Shown piece after piece: positions 1 through 4,805 of a stretch of DNA of 4,805 bases. Position 1 is the stretch's first letter. Every line of letters starts with the position of its first letter. A model generated the notes under the pieces. That model saw nothing but the letters and a program-made list of their open reading frames with translations, was not told the origin of the DNA and did no database searches. The stretch comes from a virus (Duplodnaviria; Heunggongvirae; Uroviricota; Caudoviricetes): IMG/VR virus record IMGVR_UViG_3300014539_000096. One strand, 5' to 3'. A program made the translations under genes and the position numbers.

Positions 1-59
1 ACAGATCATTCACCAATGGTCCCCCTTCGTTTACATTAGCCACAATTGAATATGGGTAA

Positions 60-839
60 ATGACGATGAATTCATTCGAGCGAAGGAATAAGATCATCCA
101 ATTAGTGAATGAACAGGGAACCGTGCTTGTTCAGGATCTGGCGGGAGTATTTGCTGCCTCGGAAGCGACAATCCGTGCCGATTTGCGCTTTCTCGAACAA
201 AAAGGCGTGGTTACGCGCTTTCATGGCGGTGCGGCGAAAATAATGTCCGGTAATAGTGAAACCGAGACCCAGGAAGTCGGGTTTAAAGAGCGATTTCAGC
301 TCGCCAGCGCGCCGAAAAACAGAATAGCGCAGGCGGCAGTCAAAATGATCCATGAAGGGATGACCGTTATTCTCGACAGCGGAAGTACCACAATGCTTAT
401 CGCCGAAGGATTAATGACCGCCAAAAATATCACGGTGATTACCAACAGTCTCCCGGCAGCGTTTGCCCTTTCCGAAAATAAAGACATTACTCTGGTCGTC
501 TGTGGTGGCACGGTCCGCCATAAAACGCGCTCGATGCATGGTTCCATTGCCGAGCGTTCATTGCAGGATATTAATGCCGATTTAATGTTTGTCGGTGCTG
601 ATGGTATTGATGCGGTTAATGGTATTACGACCTTTAATGAAGGTTATTCGATTAGCGGTGCGATGGTCACCGCCGCTAATAAAGTGATTGCCGTTCTCGA
701 TTCATCGAAATTTAACCGTCGCGGTTTTAATCAGGTACTGCCAATCGAAAAAATTGACATTATTATTACCGATGATGCTGTATCAGAGGTGGATAAACTG
801 GCATTGCAGAAGACACGGGTAAAATTAATTACGGTGTAG
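60..839 (+). CDS. gatR: DeoR-family transcriptional repressor, galactitol-operon regulator GatR-like (intact, 259 aa)
   Basis: Full-length ORF. The N-terminal region fits a DeoR-type HTH domain and the C-terminal part (DSGSTT, VVCGG motifs) fits a DeoR sugar-phosphate-binding domain. The protein is recognised from memory as GatR. Convergent with yegS, as in the E. coli gat locus. An alternative start at ATG 66 (MNSFERR) is possible; neither start has a strong Shine-Dalgarno. Confidence 0.8.
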   Translation: MTMNSFERRNKIIQLVNEQGTVLVQDLAGVFAASEATIRADLRFLEQKGVVTRFHGGAAKIMSGNSETETQEVGFKERFQLASAPKNRIAQAAVKMIHEGMTVILDSGSTTMLIAEGLMTAKNITVITNSLPAAFALSENKDITLVVCGGTVRHKTRSMHGSIAERSLQDINADLMFVGADGIDAVNGITTFNEGYSISGAMVTAANKVIAVLDSSKFNRRGFNQVLPIEKIDIIITDDAVSEVDKLALQKTRVKLITV

Positions 840-850
840 TATTGTTCTGT

Positions 851-884
851 ATGCCGGATAAGGTATTTACACCGCATCCGGCAT
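851..884. repeat. REP-type imperfect palindrome in the convergent gatR/yegS gap
   Basis: ATGCCGGATAAGG...CCGCATCCGGCAT has perfect 9-bp outer arms (851-859 and 876-884) with a mismatched inner stem, the GCCGGATG/CATCCGGC signature typical of enterobacterial REP units. It lies between two convergent stop codons (839 and 921), so it may act as a bidirectional terminator or mRNA stabiliser. Confidence 0.6.
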
Positions 885-920
885 TTCGGATTCTCCCTGG
901 TTCAAGAGAGAATAGTTTGA

Positions 921-1820
921 TTAACGCAATAATGGACAATCTGGTGGTAATCGACAACGCAACGCCGCCGGAAGTATTTCAATATGAAAGTTTTGTCCGC
1001 TCAACGGTTCGCCATCAAGATTAAAAGTGATTTCGTGTGGGGCTTGTATATCAAACCACGACGAAGCGCCTTCGATAATATTCGGGTTATCTTCGTCAGA
1101 TTTTAAGGTTGATACGAGAGCCGGAAGAATTTCATCGCCGGTAAAAATGCGCAGTTGCAGCAAGCCATCGTTAATTAACGCGTTCGGACACAATTGCTGA
1201 CCGCCACCGGCCTGACGCCCGTTACCAATACCAATGACCAGGGCGTCACCTTGCCAGTGAAAGTTTTCACCGCGGATTTCACAACGGTCCGGTTGCAGAG
1301 TATCCATGCGCATTAAGCCATGAATGATGTAAGAGACGCCACCCAGCGCGGCTTTTAATTTTTCCGGCGTTTCTGTGGTAATACGCGTCCCAAATCCGCC
1401 TGTCGCCATATTAATAAAACAGGTTTGTTTGTTGACCTGCGCCATATCTATCGCAATGGCGTTACCGGCAATTGCCAGTTTCAGCGCCTTATCCAGTGCC
1501 TCAGGAATCCCTACACTGGTGGCAAAATCATTGGCGGTTCCTAATGGCAAAATTCCCAGCGCGGGTATTTCATCCCCCTCACACTGAATCAACGCCGTAG
1601 AAACTTCATTAATGGTGCCATCGCCACCACCGGCAATCACCGTTGCGACGCCCAACTTCCGGGCCTCCTCTACATATCGTGCGGCATCGCCTTTCTCCCA
1701 GGTGACCCGCACATGGATCGTCATTCCTTCCTCACGCAACAGCATAATTGCTTCGCGCAAGGGTAGATTGTCAGTACTTTTGCCATTAAGAATCAGTAAG
1801 CTGGCGGGAAATTCTGCCNN
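921..1820 (-). CDS. yegS: lipid kinase YegS (diacylglycerol-kinase catalytic-domain family)
   Basis: The track ORF 921-1760 begins at an internal Met. The frame stays open upstream (…[25 protein letters not shown]…) to codon 1818-1820, which reads NNG on this strand and is consistent with ATG. The GGDGT nucleotide-binding motif ([11 protein letters not shown]) is present. Length would be 299 aa if the start is at 1820. Confidence 0.85.
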
Positions 1821-1828
1821 NNNNNNNN
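1819..1828. other. run of 10 N (assembly gap or masked bases)
   Basis: Literal nnnnnnnnnn in the sequence. It overlaps the predicted yegS start codon and its ribosome-binding site. Confidence 1.
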
Positions 1829-2234
1829 TGATCGTATGTGCCTTTATGATTGGTCTGTAGATAGTGTAGAGCAGAAAACAAAAGGTGGAGTCAGAACAGG
1901 ATGAAAGTCGGAGGATAAAAAGTCAGTTCAAGTATGGAGGATTCAGTGGTTACCACCAGGAGCTTGCAATGGGGACAGCGAATATTAACGGTAACCACCG
2001 ATAAATTTCAAAAAAGAGCATATACCTAATATTCAACTAAACAGTGGCATCTTCAATATAATATATTAAAGCCCCCATGGAGTTACCCTGAAGGGCCTCA
2101 ATGTCCGTAATTCCTACTTATGTAGGAAATGTTGTACAGAACATTTATTATAATCCTATTCAATTATAATAATCATGCCGTTATTATATTTAAACACTAG
2201 AGAGTGTCGTTGGTATTTAATGGGGGAAGGTGAG
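1829..2234. promoter_or_regulatory. divergent yegS/yegR intergenic control region (AT-rich, several palindromes, -10-like hexamers)
   Basis: About 400 bp between two divergent start codons. TATAAT hexamers at 2149-2154 and 2165-2170; palindromes TTCCTAC-N4-GTAGGAA (2111-2128) and AAATGTT-N6-AACATTT (2127-2146); 11-bp palindrome GTGGTTACCAC (1947-1957). No transcription start sites can be assigned by eye. Confidence 0.35.
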
Positions 2235-2552
2235 ATGAAAAAGATAGCTGCTATATCATTAATTAGTATTTTTCTTATATCTGGTTGTGCTGTGCATAAT
2301 GATGAAACAAGTATCGGTAAATTTGGTCTTGCATATAAAAGTAATATTCAGCGTAAACTCGATAACCAATACTACACCGAAGCCGAAGCTTCTTTAGCCA
2401 GGGGTAGAATATCTGGTGCAGAAAATATAGTAAAAAATGATGCAGCCCATTTCTGTGTTACTCAGGGCAAAAAAATGCAGATAGTTGACCTGAAGACAGA
2501 AGGTGCAGGATTACATGGCGTCGCTCGTCTGACATTCAAATGTGGAGAGTGA
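2235..2552 (+). CDS. yegR: small predicted lipoprotein of unknown function (105 aa), YegR-like
   Basis: Start chosen at ATG 2235 (MKKIAAISLISIFLISGC...), preceded by GGGGGAAGG. The N-terminus is a signal peptide with a lipobox (ISG-C) and Ala at +2, suggesting Lol sorting to the outer membrane. Two further Cys residues are present. The 20-codon 5' extension in the track (from 2175) lacks a ribosome-binding site. The symbol is assigned from memory of the K-12 gene order next to yegS. Confidence 0.7.
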   Translation: MKKIAAISLISIFLISGCAVHNDETSIGKFGLAYKSNIQRKLDNQYYTEAEASLARGRISGAENIVKNDAAHFCVTQGKKMQIVDLKTEGAGLHGVARLTFKCGE

Positions 2553-2614
2553 GAATATTTTTTGGTAAGCATCAAACATGCGCGTTCTGGTTGTGCTTAG
2601 CCGGAACCTGTGCG

Positions 2615-2647
2615 AGCACGATGCCGTTACGTGAAAGGCATCGTGCT
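2615..2647. repeat. perfect 11-bp inverted repeat (stem-loop) downstream of yegR
   Basis: AGCACGATGCC (2615-2625), an 11-nt loop, then GGCATCGTGCT (2637-2647). No U-run follows on either strand, so it is not a canonical intrinsic terminator. Confidence 0.6.
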
Positions 2648-2710
2648 ATGAAGGGAGATTCTATCGATGTGGTCAATGGAAGACGGTGACCAGGGATAGG
2701 GCTTATGCAT

Positions 2711-2737
2711 AAAAAATAAGCCCGTGTAAGGGAGATT
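2711..2737. other. P2-type att core sequence (attL of the prophage)
   Basis: AAAAAATAAGCCCGTGTAAGGGAGATT matches my recollection of the 27-bp P2 attP/attB core. It sits 79 bp beyond the int stop codon, at the point where gene content changes from host to phage. Confidence 0.75.
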
Positions 2738-2816
2738 TAGGGTGTCACCAGTAGGGGCTTTCAACGGTACAATGCGGGTTTGAGCGGCATAAATTACCAC
2801 TGAAAGCCCTTAAACG

Positions 2817-3830
2817 TTACTCTACTGTGGACACTGTGTGGACACACTCGACCTCAGTACCACCTCTTAGCGGATTAAGAGAAATGGCGTCCTGAAGGTA
2901 CTCTGGCGCAAAATGAGCGTAAACCATAGTTTGCTCAATCCGCGTGTGACCTAGTATCCGTTGTAGCGTGATAATACTTCCTCCATTAATCATGAAATGA
3001 GTGGCAAAGCTGTGCCTTAGTGCATGTGTAGCTTGCCCCATTGGCAAATCCGGTTTTATTGCTTTCATTGTTCGTCTGAAGCGAGGGTAATCAGCATCAG
3101 GGAATAAAAAACCTCGTTTGTTATCCGCGATCATTTTGGCAACAGCCTCTGAGATCGGGACGGTGCGTGGTTTGTTTGTTTTCGTTTTAACAAACGTGAC
3201 GCGGTTATGGATGATATTTTCTGCTTTCAAACGAGCTGCTTCTCCCCAACGTGCTCCAGTACTCAGGCAAAGAATCGCAATCTTTTTGTTGTCGCCGTCA
3301 AGAGCAGCAAGCAGTAAGGCAATTTCTTCCTGCGTGAGATAGCCTGTGTCTGGTTTTTCCTCCTTAAGCCTTTTTGTCCCTCTGATAGGGTGCTCACCAA
3401 AGAATAACTCCGCTTCAATCAGGGCTGTAAACATGCCGCTAATACATGTTAAATCACGATTGATACTCGAAGGTTTAATACCCTGACTTCTTCGGGTAGC
3501 GCAGTACTGGCTGATAAGCGATTTCGTAATTTGAAATGCGCATGGGTCATTCGTTATTTTTGTGAAGATTTCAATTTTTCCAAGATTAGATTTCCCATGC
3601 TCTTCGTGTTTACCCTTTAAATCCCACCAGATCTGTGTCAGCTCCGACAGACGTCGCTTGTCTGTTGGTTTTGATAGCCATTCTTTATTGTGGTGGTTGT
3701 ACAACGTGTATTTCGCGAAAGCGACAGCTTCGCTTTTCTTATCAAACTTCCTACGGATGCGTTTTCCATTACGTCCAGTAGGGCGGATGTCCACTTCATA
3801 TCGACCATCATCGAGTTTTTTGATTGCCAT
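2817..3830 (-). CDS. int: phage P2-type tyrosine integrase (337 aa)
   Basis: Full-length ORF with GGAGGG 7 nt upstream of the ATG. C-terminal catalytic signature of tyrosine recombinases (ARWGEA... HALRHSFATH... LGHTRIEQTMVYAH). The sequence is recognised as P2 Int. Confidence 0.95.
   Translation of the reverse strand: MAIKKLDDGRYEVDIRPTGRNGKRIRRKFDKKSEAVAFAKYTLYNHHNKEWLSKPTDKRRLSELTQIWWDLKGKHEEHGKSNLGKIEIFTKITNDPCAFQITKSLISQYCATRRSQGIKPSSINRDLTCISGMFTALIEAELFFGEHPIRGTKRLKEEKPDTGYLTQEEIALLLAALDGDNKKIAILCLSTGARWGEAARLKAENIIHNRVTFVKTKTNKPRTVPISEAVAKMIADNKRGFLFPDADYPRFRRTMKAIKPDLPMGQATHALRHSFATHFMINGGSIITLQRILGHTRIEQTMVYAHFAPEYLQDAISLNPLRGGTEVECVHTVSTVE
2826..2844. promoter_or_regulatory. tandem direct repeat TGTGGACA-N3-TGTGGACA, candidate Int arm-type binding sites
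   Basis: Exact octamer at 2826-2833 and 2837-2844 with 11-bp periodicity, inside the last codons of int and about 90 bp from the att core. From memory, P2 Int arm sites are direct repeats of this type. Confidence 0.5.
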
Positions 3831-3884
3831 CAGAAAACCCTCCGAGTGGTGTGTTTTTTTGCGACTACTAATCGCTTTTTTCGT

Positions 3885-3905
3885 GGTGGCTGAAATTTAG
3901 CCACC
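3885..3905. repeat. perfect 7-bp inverted repeat in the C-int intergenic spacer
   Basis: GGTGGCT (3885-3891), loop GAAATTT, then AGCCACC (3899-3905). On the C-int transcript the hairpin is followed by an A-run rather than a U-run, so it is not a typical terminator. It may be a processing or regulatory structure. Confidence 0.4.
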
Positions 3906-3945
3906 AATAGTAGGCACTTGTGATGAATATATTCACGATGAATTG

Positions 3946-4245
3946 TTAACCAGTCTTTTGACCGGAGTGGGGCGACGTTGTTTCGTTTTGCCCAAAGTGT
4001 GCGAGAGCGGGCGCAATTTGCCCGGACTCAGGAGCGATCTGATTGGTCATGAACCATAAAGTGTATTTGGTGAATTGTGGGGTCTGCAGGATGTTCATCA
4101 TGACATCTGTTGGAGGTGTTGAACGACCACTTTCATAGTAACTCAGCGTGCCATACGGAACCCCTGTTAAATCAGCAAGTTGTTGTCTGCTCAAATACTC
4201 TGATTTTCGCATTAAGACTATCTTCTCGCTTATCGTGTTTGACAT
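3946..4245 (-). CDS. C: P2-type immunity repressor C (99 aa)
   Basis: Full-length ORF recognised as the P2 C repressor. It is transcribed leftward upstream of int, and its start codon overlaps the Pe -35 hexamer. Confidence 0.9.
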   Translation of the reverse strand: MSNTISEKIVLMRKSEYLSRQQLADLTGVPYGTLSYYESGRSTPPTDVMMNILQTPQFTKYTLWFMTNQIAPESGQIAPALAHFGQNETTSPHSGQKTG

Positions 4246-4267
4246 GGTGTTTAGATCTCAATAGTAT
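4239..4267 (+). promoter_or_regulatory. candidate early promoter Pe (TTGACA, 17-bp spacer, TAGTAT)
   Basis: Consensus -35 TTGACA at 4239-4244, a 17-bp spacer, and -10 TAGTAT at 4262-4267, oriented toward cox. The -10 lies between the two operator repeats. Confidence 0.6.
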
Positions 4268-4280
4268 TTAGTTTAGATGT
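4249..4280. promoter_or_regulatory. C-repressor operator: two direct-repeat half-sites spaced 22 bp
   Basis: GTTTAGATCT (4249-4258) and GTTTAGATGT (4271-4280) match at 9 of 10 positions and their starts are 22 bp apart, flanking the Pe -10. This agrees with the published P2 operator arrangement as I recall it. A third partial copy, TGTTTAG, is at 4285-4291. Confidence 0.65.
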
Positions 4281-4316
4281 AGATTGTTTAGTGCTTGGAT
4301 GTGGGCACTAAAAGGC

Positions 4317-4322
4317 ATTATA
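4317..4322 (-). promoter_or_regulatory. candidate Pc -10 hexamer (TATAAT on the minus strand)
   Basis: A perfect TATAAT on the minus strand, facing Pe so that the two transcripts would overlap by a few tens of bp. No good -35 is found at 16-18 bp spacing. Confidence 0.4.
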
Positions 4323-4422
4323 AGACATTAAACGCAATTCATGAGGGCTATCCGTCAGCCACGCGTTGTGTTTCCTGCCAGTCAGTCTTTGAAGCAAAAA
4401 ACAAGCATTACCGGAGAATGGC

Positions 4423-4698
4423 ATGAGTATTCGTATCGAAATTGGCGAACGTTATGTCGTTACCAGTGACAGCTTTCAGTTTATTCTCCACGAGAAAAAG
4501 AGAGCGGAAAGCGGTAAAAACGCCGGTCAGGAATGGCTGTCGGTGGTTGGTTATTACCCGAAATTAAGCCAGCTCGTTTCCGGCCTGATGCATCACGATA
4601 TTCTGACCGGAAGCGCAAAGTCTTTTGCTGATTTAAACGCGCAGGTTGAGCAACTCAGCAAGCGTTGTTCAGAGGCTTTTGGCTCATATGGCCGTTAA
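4423..4698 (+). CDS. cox: P2-type Cox protein (excision directionality factor and Pc repressor, 91 aa)
   Basis: Full-length ORF recognised as P2 Cox, with GGAGA 5 nt upstream of the ATG. It is the first gene of the rightward early operon. Confidence 0.9.
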   Translation: MSIRIEIGERYVVTSDSFQFILHEKKRAESGKNAGQEWLSVVGYYPKLSQLVSGLMHHDILTGSAKSFADLNAQVEQLSKRCSEAFGSYGR

Positions 4699-4740
4699 AG
4701 CCTCCGGGCGTTTTGTCCCTCCGTCAGCATTTGCCGCAGG

Positions 4741-4763
4741 CACCGGTAAGGCGTTTACCGGTG
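4741..4763. repeat. perfect 9-bp inverted repeat downstream of cox
   Basis: CACCGGTAA (4741-4749), loop GGCGT, then TTACCGGTG (4755-4763). No clear U-run follows. Confidence 0.5.
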
Positions 4764-4766
4764 CTT

Positions 4767-4805
4767 ATGCATGGAACGCGCCACGCGAGGCTGTCGGGCG
4801 CGAAA
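4767..4805 (+). CDS. possible 5' end of the next early-operon ORF (truncated by window edge)
   Basis: ATG at 4767 opens a frame (MHGTRHARLSGAK...) that runs to the window end. An in-frame GTG at 4761 and an out-of-frame ATG at 4771 are alternatives. The ribosome-binding site is weak and the protein is not recognised. Confidence 0.25.
   Translation, partial: MHGTRHARLSGAK

What the first reader, a model, noticed from the sequence alone, without database searches (positions are those of the whole stretch)
4239..4345. Intact lysis-lysogeny switch: Pe overlaps the C start codon and is flanked by direct-repeat operator half-sites 22 bp apart
A near-consensus Pe (TTGACA-17-TAGTAT) has its -10 between the two GTTTAGATST repeats. 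The C start codon lies within the Pe -35, and a perfect TATAAT on the opposite strand (4317-4322) gives a face-to-face promoter pair. Intact operators and full-length C and Cox suggest the immunity system is functional, and the operator sequence defines its immunity specificity.
Basis: partly seen in the sequence, partly recalled or inferred. Interest (0 to 1): 0.35.

Follow-up and report, generated by a model that had tools for sequence, protein, structure and literature searches.

The report
P2 immunity switch missing its cox
This is the textbook repressor/operator region of coliphage P2, base-for-base identical to the reference phage, but it sits in a decayed E. coli prophage remnant whose cox gene has been deleted, so only the immunity half of the switch remains.

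Summary
The sequence features are real. Pe (TTGACA-17-TAGTAT, 4239-4267), the two GTTTAGAT half-sites 22 bp apart (4249-4256, 4271-4278) and the opposite-strand TATAAT (4317-4322) are all present. Window 3830-4350 is 100% identical to phage P2 (AF063097 25475-25995), where these sites are annotated and experimentally characterised as Pe, O1, O2 and Pc. C is identical to P2 C (structures 2XCJ and 2L49).

At 4350/4351, 9 bp before the cox ATG would begin, the sequence jumps about 1.7 kb to the last 26 codons of orf82. This removes cox, orf78, B, orf80, orf81 and most of orf82.

Identical public contigs show a second deletion of about 27 kb just past the window (A' fused to 'T). The element is therefore a roughly 6-kb cryptic remnant: attL-int-C-Pe/Pc-orf83-A'-'T-U-D-ogr. 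It probably still confers P2-type immunity, but it cannot switch, excise or replicate. This is already known biology and of low interest.

One side observation is unexplained. Independent remnants reuse the same left breakpoints (P2 25995 and 28278), and each lies just downstream of a cox-box.

The parts
2711..2737 (+). attL core (27-nt P2 att core AAAAAATAAGCCCGTGTAAGGGAGATT), the left end of the prophage next to yegR
   Evidence: Equals P2 24356-24382, annotated as the attP core. The blastn match of the window to P2 starts at 2710.
2817..3830 (-). int, a P2-type tyrosine integrase (337 aa), second gene of the Pc operon
   Evidence: ORF. Pfam Int_N plus Phage_integrase. Window 2710-4350, which contains int, is 99.3% identical to P2.
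3946..4245 (-). C, the immunity repressor (99 aa), identical to P2 C
   Evidence: 100% nucleotide identity to P2. tblastn 99/99 identical. PDB 2XCJ/2L49 'C protein', E=6e-64 over residues 1-99. HTH_3 domain.
4239..4244 (+). Pe -35 hexamer TTGACA, overlapping the C start codon (4243-4245) by 2 nt
   Evidence: P2 annotation 25884-25889. Promoter scan.
4249..4256 (+). Operator half-site O1, GTTTAGAT
   Evidence: P2 annotation 25894-25901. Exact 8-mer. Mutating O1 abolishes C binding and repression (PMC1904263).
4262..4267 (+). Pe -10 hexamer TAGTAT
   Evidence: P2 annotation 25907-25912. Promoter scan, 17-bp spacer.
4271..4278 (+). Operator half-site O2, GTTTAGAT, 22 bp from O1
   Evidence: P2 annotation 25916-25923. 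Exact 8-mer.
4287..4312 (.). Perfect 8-bp inverted repeat (TTTAGTGC/GCACTAAA, 10-nt spacer) in the region where the Pe and Pc transcripts overlap. It is native P2 sequence and its role was not tested.
   Evidence: the repeat finder pair I3.
4309..4336 (+). Three tandem cox-box-like repeats over Pc: TAAAAGGCA, TATAAGACA and TTAAACGCA, with 1, 2 and 0 mismatches to TTAAASNCM. They form a Cox operator that no longer has a resident Cox.
   Evidence: Pattern scan. Direct-repeat family D1. Cox-box consensus from PMC3936717.
4317..4322 (-). Pc -10 hexamer TATAAT
   Evidence: P2 annotation 25962-25967. Sequence.
4337..4342 (-). Pc -35 hexamer as annotated in P2 (ATGAAT, a weak match)
   Evidence: P2 annotation 25982-25987.
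4349..4351 (.). Deletion junction. The shared TA (4349-4350) is followed at 4351 by the orf82 tail. About 1.7 kb is missing (P2 about 25996-27695): cox, orf78, B, orf80, orf81 and orf82 codons 1-48. The junction lies about 40 bp upstream of the inferred Pc start.
   Evidence: Split megablast match. Three-way alignment. An intact relative, Z217-2, has GGGCTA|GAGGACGACATG on the left and GCGGCTTA|TCCGTC on the right. blastn coordinates.
4346..4426 (+). Remnant of orf82 (TraR/DksA-like zinc finger): the last 26 codons plus stop, with no start codon of its own
   Evidence: tblastn of orf82 aa 49-74, 92% identity. Weak zf-dskA_traR hit on the fusion ORF.
4423..4698 (+). orf83 (DUF5405, 91 aa). It is now the first intact ORF downstream of Pe and is the ORF most likely mistaken for Cox.
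   Evidence: Pfam DUF5405, E=2e-14. 98% identical to P2 Orf83. No similarity to Cox.
4688..4805 (+). 5' end of replication gene A, running off the window. In identical contigs it is truncated after about 82 codons and fused to the 3' part of tail gene T.
   Evidence: Match to P2 28034-28151. L006 is 100% identical to window 4100-4805, and its A'|'T junction lies beyond the window.

Best explanation
The region is the immunity half of the phage P2 C/Cox transcriptional switch. It is preserved with no sequence change in a cryptic P2 remnant inserted at the yegR-side P2 attachment site of an E. coli chromosome.

**Inferred mechanism.**
- The weak promoter Pc (4317-4342, minus strand) transcribes C and int.
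- C dimers bind the two direct half-sites O1 and O2 that flank the Pe -10, and shut off Pe.
- The same C would repress Pe on any incoming P2-immunity phage, giving P2-specific superinfection immunity.
- cox is gone, so nothing encoded here can repress Pc or promote excision. The element is locked in the repressed state and cannot switch, excise or replicate.
- If Pe were derepressed it would express only Orf83 and a truncated A.

**What is shown.** Sequence identity to the characterised P2 elements, the absence of cox and B, and the remnant architecture in identical contigs.

**What is inferred.** That Pc is still active with foreign sequence upstream of about -40, and that immunity is actually expressed.
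For: - Window 3830-4350 is 100% identical to P2 25475-25995.
- C is 99/99 identical to P2 C and matches PDB 2XCJ/2L49.
- Experimental basis for operator function, the 22-nt spacing and the mapped transcription starts is in PMC1904263. Cox functions and cox-boxes are in PMC3936717.
- cox, orf78, B, orf80 and orf81 are absent by DNA alignment and by tblastn.
- The intact relative Z217-2 at the same locus carries an extra 1,701 bp between the two junction flanks.
- The same junction occurs in independent public assemblies: GCA_050713875.1, GCA_026177665.1 and ENA ERZ27313755. In each, A' is fused to 'T, followed by U, D and ogr.
Against: - No expression data exist.
- The junction replaces all native sequence upstream of about -40 of the already weak Pc, so C output could be changed.
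- The 403 of 405 complete E. coli genomes with this switch that still run from it into the 5' end of cox show that the cox-less state is rare. There is no evidence that it is selected rather than simply decaying.
- The window itself ends inside A. The second deletion is inferred from contigs identical to the window over 4100-4805 and over 1700-2900 (apart from the window's N-run at 1820-1829). It is not seen in the window.
Confidence: 0.92

Rival explanations
1. One reading: an intact, bistable C/Cox lysis-lysogeny switch in a functional, excisable P2-type prophage.
For: C, Pe, O1/O2 and Pc are identical to P2. A 91-aa ORF, the same length as Cox, follows on the plus strand.
Against: That ORF is Orf83/DUF5405. 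No cox-like sequence exists in any frame. The P2 match breaks 9 bp before the cox ATG. B is missing from the window, and identical contigs lack most of A and the late genes.
Confidence: 0.01
2. The cox-less junction is an assembly or scaffolding artefact, and the real genome carries a normal P2 prophage.
For: The window contains a 10-N run (1820-1829), so it comes from an edited or draft record. The junction is absent from 5,426 complete E. coli genomes, from the phage collection, and from the GTDB, IMG/VR and JGI metagenome scans.
Against: The identical junction, with the identical second junction, is found in contigs from different submitters and pipelines: NCBI GCA_050713875.1, GCA_026177665.1 (3 samples) and an ENA megahit metagenome. 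That is about 9 of the 25 contigs read for this int allele. Only 2 bp (TA) are shared at the join, with imperfect GGCT(T)A homology around it. That is far too short for a repeat-induced assembler error.
Confidence: 0.03
3. The remnant is inert. Pc is crippled by the replaced upstream DNA, or C levels are too low, so the locus confers no immunity and is simply decaying.
For: Pc is intrinsically weak, with a poor -35 and a 14-bp annotated spacer. It needed Pe inactivation to be detected by primer extension (PMC1904263). The junction lies about 40 bp upstream of its start.
Against: C, int and the whole Pe/Pc core carry no mutation relative to P2 over 521 bp. Window-type remnants from several assemblies are identical over 1,641 bp. 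Neither the native nor the new upstream sequence is an A/T-rich UP-like element (sequence).
Confidence: 0.1

Closest known systems
Bacteriophage P2 (Peduovirus P2, AF063097/NC_001895) C-Pe/Pc-cox transcriptional switch
   Same: int, C, Pe -35/-10, O1, O2, Pc -10/-35 and the cox-boxes over Pc are the same. The region from the int start to 9 bp before cox is 100% identical, giving the same immunity class.
   Different: cox, the first gene of the early operon, is deleted together with orf78, B, orf80, orf81 and most of orf82. Pe now reads into the orf82 tail and orf83.
Intact P2-immunity prophages at the same locus in E. coli (for example strain Z217-2, NZ_CP159630)
   Same: The flanks are the same (gatR-yegS-yegR-attL-int-C), with 99.5% identity over window 1-4350.
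   Different: They carry the 1,701 bp that are missing here. Of 405 complete genomes with this switch, 403 still run from it into the 5' end of cox.
Cryptic ('grounded') prophage remnants, such as the P2 remnant ogrK-yegZ next to yegR in E. coli K-12 (from my own knowledge; general review PMC6379469, listed but not read)
   Same: It occupies the same chromosomal site and is an internally deleted P2 that retains the attR-proximal D and ogr genes. It is non-inducible.
   Different: This remnant also keeps attL, int, C and the complete operator and promoter region, so it could still express immunity and integrase.
Heteroimmune P2-like switches (Wphi, P2 Hy dis, 186)
   Same: They share the architecture: convergent promoters and a repressor that binds direct repeats (PMC1904263 and PMC1904268).
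   Different: Their operator sequence, spacing (34 nt in Wphi) and repressors (43-63% identity) differ. The window is of the P2 class, not one of these.

Membership tests
P2-type C/Cox transcriptional switch | C-family HTH immunity repressor transcribed leftward as the first gene of the Pc operon | tested here: met
   99-aa ORF at 3946-4245 (minus strand), identical to P2 C and matching PDB 2XCJ/2L49.
P2-type C/Cox transcriptional switch | Operator made of two direct (non-palindromic) half-sites flanking the Pe -10, 22 bp centre to centre | tested here: met
   GTTTAGAT at 4249-4256 and 4271-4278, with the -10 at 4262-4267. Function is described in PMC1904263.
P2-type C/Cox transcriptional switch | Convergent Pe and Pc promoters whose transcripts overlap by about 35 nt | tested here: inconclusive
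   The hexamers are present and identical to P2. Transcription starts were mapped in P2 (PMC1904263) but cannot be measured for this locus. Sequence upstream of about -40 of Pc is non-native.
P2-type C/Cox transcriptional switch | cox as the first gene of the Pe operon, encoding the Pc repressor and excision directionality factor | tested here: not met
   The P2 match ends at 25995 and the cox CDS starts at 26005. tblastn with Cox finds nothing. The downstream 91-aa ORF is DUF5405.
P2-type C/Cox transcriptional switch | Cox-boxes overlapping Pc | tested here: met
   Three boxes at 4309-4336 with 1, 2 and 0 mismatches to TTAAASNCM. Any boxes that lay to the right of 25995 are lost.
Functional (inducible, replication-competent) P2 prophage | Early replication genes B and A are intact | tested here: not met
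   B is absent from the window. In identical contigs A is truncated after about 82 codons.
Functional (inducible, replication-competent) P2 prophage | Late morphogenetic and lysis genes are present | tested here: not met
   This is not visible in the window itself. Contigs identical to the window go A'|'T-U-D-ogr-terminator, a deletion of about 26.8 kb.
Cryptic prophage remnant retaining an immunity module | att site plus integrase plus repressor and operator retained while the lytic functions are deleted | tested here: met
   attL core at 2711-2737, int, C and Pe/Pc are intact. There are two internal deletions with short-homology junctions.
Cryptic prophage remnant retaining an immunity module | The remnant actually confers superinfection immunity | not testable with these tools
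   This needs plating of P2, P2 vir and heteroimmune phages on a carrier strain.

The most novel reading that the evidence does not exclude
The decay of P2 prophages is not random. Independent remnants reuse two left breakpoints.

- **Site A** is P2 25995, which is window 4350, directly upstream of the cox ribosome-binding site. It is joined to three different partners: the orf82 tail here, the 3' part of A in strain NMBU-W12E19, and gene J in GCA_044199155.1 and GCA_029741745.1.
- **Site B** is P2 28278 in gene A, joined to four different partners.

Both sites have a near-consensus plus-strand cox-box just upstream, and both share the motif CGCAAT-N10-TA. Site B also lies in a hairpin loop and resembles the att core.

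One reading is that Cox, with or without Int, promotes illegitimate recombination at these sites in cells that have started to derepress. Another is that they are site-specific nick or fork-arrest sites. Survivors would then be 'grounded' prophages that keep only immunity.
Probability: 0.2. Interest if true: 0.45.

Novelty: already known. Interest (0 to 1): 0.12.

Why it matters
For annotation, this locus should be called a cryptic P2 remnant with a P2-class immunity module. It should not be called an intact or inducible prophage. Any prediction of phage release, of helper function for P4-like satellites, or of a working lysis-lysogeny decision from it would be wrong.

Biologically it is one more example of a host keeping a phage repressor without the phage. 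It may protect against the very common P2-immunity phages, which are present in about 7.5% of complete E. coli genomes.

The only point with wider potential is the recurrent-breakpoint pattern. If it is real, prophage 'grounding' in P2-like phages follows preferred, possibly Cox-linked, routes.

Tried and rejected
**Searches for the junction that found nothing**
- The exact junction, and the left flank followed by any non-native base, gave 0 hits in genome contigs, metagenome contigs and viral contigs.
- The junction was absent from complete E. coli genomes and from the phage collection.
- Exact-protein look-ups of the two junction-spanning ORFs found nothing on record.
- The junction was eventually found through the Orf83 and Int look-ups.

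**Other null results**
- An Rfam scan of the window gave no hits.

**Explanations for the recurrent left breakpoint at 25995 that I considered and did not find supported**
- A P2 Int pseudo-core. The GGGCT(T)A similarity lies on the wrong side of the arm for Int cleavage, and the site is not among the top core-like windows.
- A local hairpin. None forms at site A, although there is a strong one at site B.
- Similarity to the gpA ori nick site, to dif or to Ter. By-eye comparisons gave only about 35-50% matches.
- IS630-type CTAG/TA targeting. No IS is present at this site in any of the 405 genomes.
- Microhomology alone. This explains the choice of partner (for example TGAGGGCT in J and CCGGTA in A and V) but not the reuse of the same left site.

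**A misleading pattern scan**
- Scanning for site B followed by a non-G base mostly recovered a harmless G-to-A allele (GGTACAC), not deletions.

Full report
**1. What is in the window**

The ORF list, the Pfam scan and comparison with annotated genomes give the following order:
- the host genes gatR (60-839), yegS (921 to about 1820, interrupted by a 10-N run) and yegR (2175-2552);
- the 27-nt P2 att core (2711-2737);
- int (2817-3830, minus strand);
- C (3946-4245, minus strand);
- the intergenic region named in the finding;
- a 91-aa plus-strand ORF (4423-4698);
- the start of another plus-strand gene (4688 onward).

The whole window matches hundreds of E. coli chromosomes at about 99%. The match is always in two pieces that span about 1.7 kb more DNA than the window holds.

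**2.

Pe is TTGACA (4239-4244), a 17-bp spacer, then TAGTAT (4262-4267). It is the only sigma-70-like site found in 3800-4805. The exact 8-mer GTTTAGAT occurs in the window only at 4249 and 4271. TATAAT lies on the minus strand at 4317-4322. The C start codon (4243-4245) overlaps the -35 by two bases.

Window 3830-4350 is 100% identical to phage P2 25475-25995. The P2 GenBank record annotates exactly these bases as Pe -35, O1, Pe -10, O2, Pc -10 and Pc -35 (offset 21645).

The biology is published:
- O1 is GTTTAGAT and the half-sites are 22 nt centre to centre.
- P2 C cannot bind a single half-site, and mutating O1 abolishes repression.
- Primer extension placed the Pe and Pc starts so that the transcripts overlap by about 35 nt (PMC1904263).

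C here is 99/99 identical to P2 C, whose structure is solved as 2XCJ and 2L49. This is the P2 immunity class itself.

**3.

The identity to P2 stops at 25995 (window 4350). The cox CDS begins at 26005. From 4346-4351 onward the window instead matches P2 27691 onward. That region is the last 26 codons of orf82, then orf83, then the start of A.

tblastn with P2 Cox, Orf78, B, Orf80 and Orf81 finds no significant match in any frame, even at E up to 10. Cox, B, Orf80 and Orf81 give no hit at all, and Orf78 gives only one chance-level match (E=4.4, in host DNA). Orf82 aligns only over residues 49-74, Orf83 over its full length, and C over its full length.

The 91-aa ORF at 4423-4698 is DUF5405/Orf83 and is unrelated to Cox (E=0.71). 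It happens to have exactly Cox's length, which probably misled a reader working without tools.

In an intact relative at the same chromosomal site (strain Z217-2), the two flanks read ...CATGAGGGCTA|GAGGACGACATG(cox) and ...GTGCGGCTTA|TCCGTCAGCC. The window reads ...CATGAGGGCTA|TCCGTCAGCC. This is a 1,701-bp deletion across a shared TA with imperfect GGCT(T)A homology. The junction lies about 40 bp upstream of the inferred Pc start, so the Pc core hexamers and three cox-box-like repeats (4309-4336) remain.

**4. The wider element**

An exact-protein look-up with Orf83 and with the window's Int allele found public contigs with the same junction: GCA_050713875.1, GCA_026177665.1 and ENA ERZ27313755. 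L006, from GCA_050713875.1, is 100% identical to window 4100-4805. Over 1700-2900 it differs only where the window has its 10 Ns and L006 has a single A.

These contigs continue beyond the window. A is cut after about 82 codons (P2 28278) and joined through CCGGT(T)A homology to the 3' part of tail gene T (P2 21530). U, D, ogr and the terminator follow.

The element is therefore a roughly 6-kb cryptic remnant with this order: attL-int-C-Pe/Pc-[1.7-kb deletion]-orf82'-orf83-A'-[26.8-kb deletion]-'T-U-D-ogr-(attR). It has no replication, capsid or lysis genes.

An assembly artefact is unlikely. The junctions recur in assemblies from different sources, and they share only 2-5 bp.

**5. How it most likely works**

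*Shown:* all cis elements and the repressor of the immunity arm are present and identical to P2. The Cox arm and the lytic genes are gone.

*Inferred:*
- Pc transcribes C-int.
- C bound to O1 and O2 keeps Pe off, both here and on incoming P2-immunity genomes. The host would therefore be immune to P2-class phages but not to heteroimmune relatives.
- Without Cox there is no repression of Pc and no excision (Cox functions: PMC3936717). The state is locked.
- Derepression of Pe would yield only Orf83 and a truncated A.

The main uncertainty is whether the weak Pc is affected by the foreign sequence now lying upstream of about -40.

**6. How common**

The exact P2 C protein is extremely common in public assemblies. 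Of 5,426 complete E. coli genomes, 405 carry this switch and 403 of those run on from it into the 5' end of cox. The two exceptions are:
- NMBU-W12E19, which has a different deletion;
- strain CM2, which has only a 56-bp Pe/O1/O2 fragment at two places, possibly engineered.

The finding is therefore a known, textbook system in an uncommon decayed state.

**7. Side observation: recurrent breakpoints (unexplained)**

- **Left breakpoint at P2 25995 (window 4350).** It is used in three different deletions, joined to the orf82 tail (this element), to the 3' part of A at 29940 (NMBU-W12E19), and to gene J at 11687 (GCA_044199155.1 and GCA_029741745.1).
- **Left breakpoint at P2 28278 (in A).** It is joined to T (21530), ogr (24052; complete genome CP055918), V (10666), and an internal site in A (28956; a heteroimmune IMG/VR contig).
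- **Right endpoint at V 10666.** It is used twice.
- **Shared dinucleotide.** Eight of the ten junctions lie on a shared TA.

The two recurrent left sites have different local features:
- Site 28278 lies in the 5-nt loop of a strong hairpin that looks like a terminator (-10.2 kcal/mol). It is also among the most att-core-like windows of P2.
- Site 25995 has neither property.
- Both sites have a near-consensus plus-strand cox-box just upstream, and none of the 12 other endpoints does.
- Both sites share CGCAAT-N10-TA.

The window-type and J-type remnants differ by two SNPs in int-C, so they are separate lineages.

The sample is small, was gathered opportunistically and is partly from related strains, and the motifs were found after the fact. 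I record this as a lead, not a result. Candidate explanations are Cox/Int-promoted illegitimate recombination in derepressing cells, with survivors selected, or site-specific nick or fork-arrest hot spots.

**8. Verdict**

- Novelty: already known.
- Interest: low.

Noticed in passing
window 4349-4351; L002 3199-3202; L027 3479-3483 (minus strand); L034, same position: Three independent deletion derivatives of P2-immunity prophages share exactly the same left breakpoint (...CATGAGGGCTA|, P2 25995). Their right partners differ: the orf82 tail, the 3' part of A, and gene J. Among 405 complete genomes with this switch, the only natural deletion variant (NMBU-W12E19) also uses this breakpoint.
   Followed up: partly
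L006 3506-3510; L029 1198-1201; L032 1198; L058 4402-4406 (all equal to P2 28278, about 590 bp beyond the window end): A second recurrent left breakpoint lies in gene A, after AATAAAAGCCCGGT(A). It is joined to T, V, ogr or an internal A site in different contigs. It sits in the loop of a strong terminator-like hairpin, next to a cox-box-like TAAAAGCCC. It shares CGCAAT-N10-TA with the 25995 site.
   Followed up: partly
window 1820-1829: A run of 10 N replaces a single A, the middle base of the yegS start codon on the minus strand. The otherwise identical contig DBIYPT010000014.1 and strain Z217-2 both have the A. The window therefore comes from an edited, masked or draft record.
   Followed up: yes
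NZ_CP114891.1 (E. coli strain CM2) 578534-578589 and a second place: Only a 56-bp piece of the P2 switch (Pe -35, O1, -10 and O2, equal to window 4228-4283) occurs twice in this 4.58-Mb genome. There is no annotation and no flanking P2 DNA. It may be an engineered promoter/operator cassette.
   Followed up: no
window 4287-4294 / 4305-4312: A perfect 8-bp inverted repeat with a 10-nt spacer lies in the stretch where the Pe and Pc transcripts overlap. The J-type remnant lineage carries A4290G, which would turn one A-U pair into G-U in the plus-strand RNA.
   Followed up: no
L002 (NZ_CP042892.1) 4600-6204: In NMBU-W12E19, the cox-to-A deletion leaves C next to the variable region downstream of A. 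That region there holds an ISKpn26 transposase and a SIR2-family gene, which may be a defence-system hotspot retained by a grounded prophage.
   Followed up: no
L065 (IMGVR_UViG_2548876945_000010) 9242-11868: This P2-like viral contig has three further internal deletions: P2 2214 to 6480, 8379 to 10666, and 11397 to 12158. One of them reuses the V 10666 endpoint seen in L029.
   Followed up: partly
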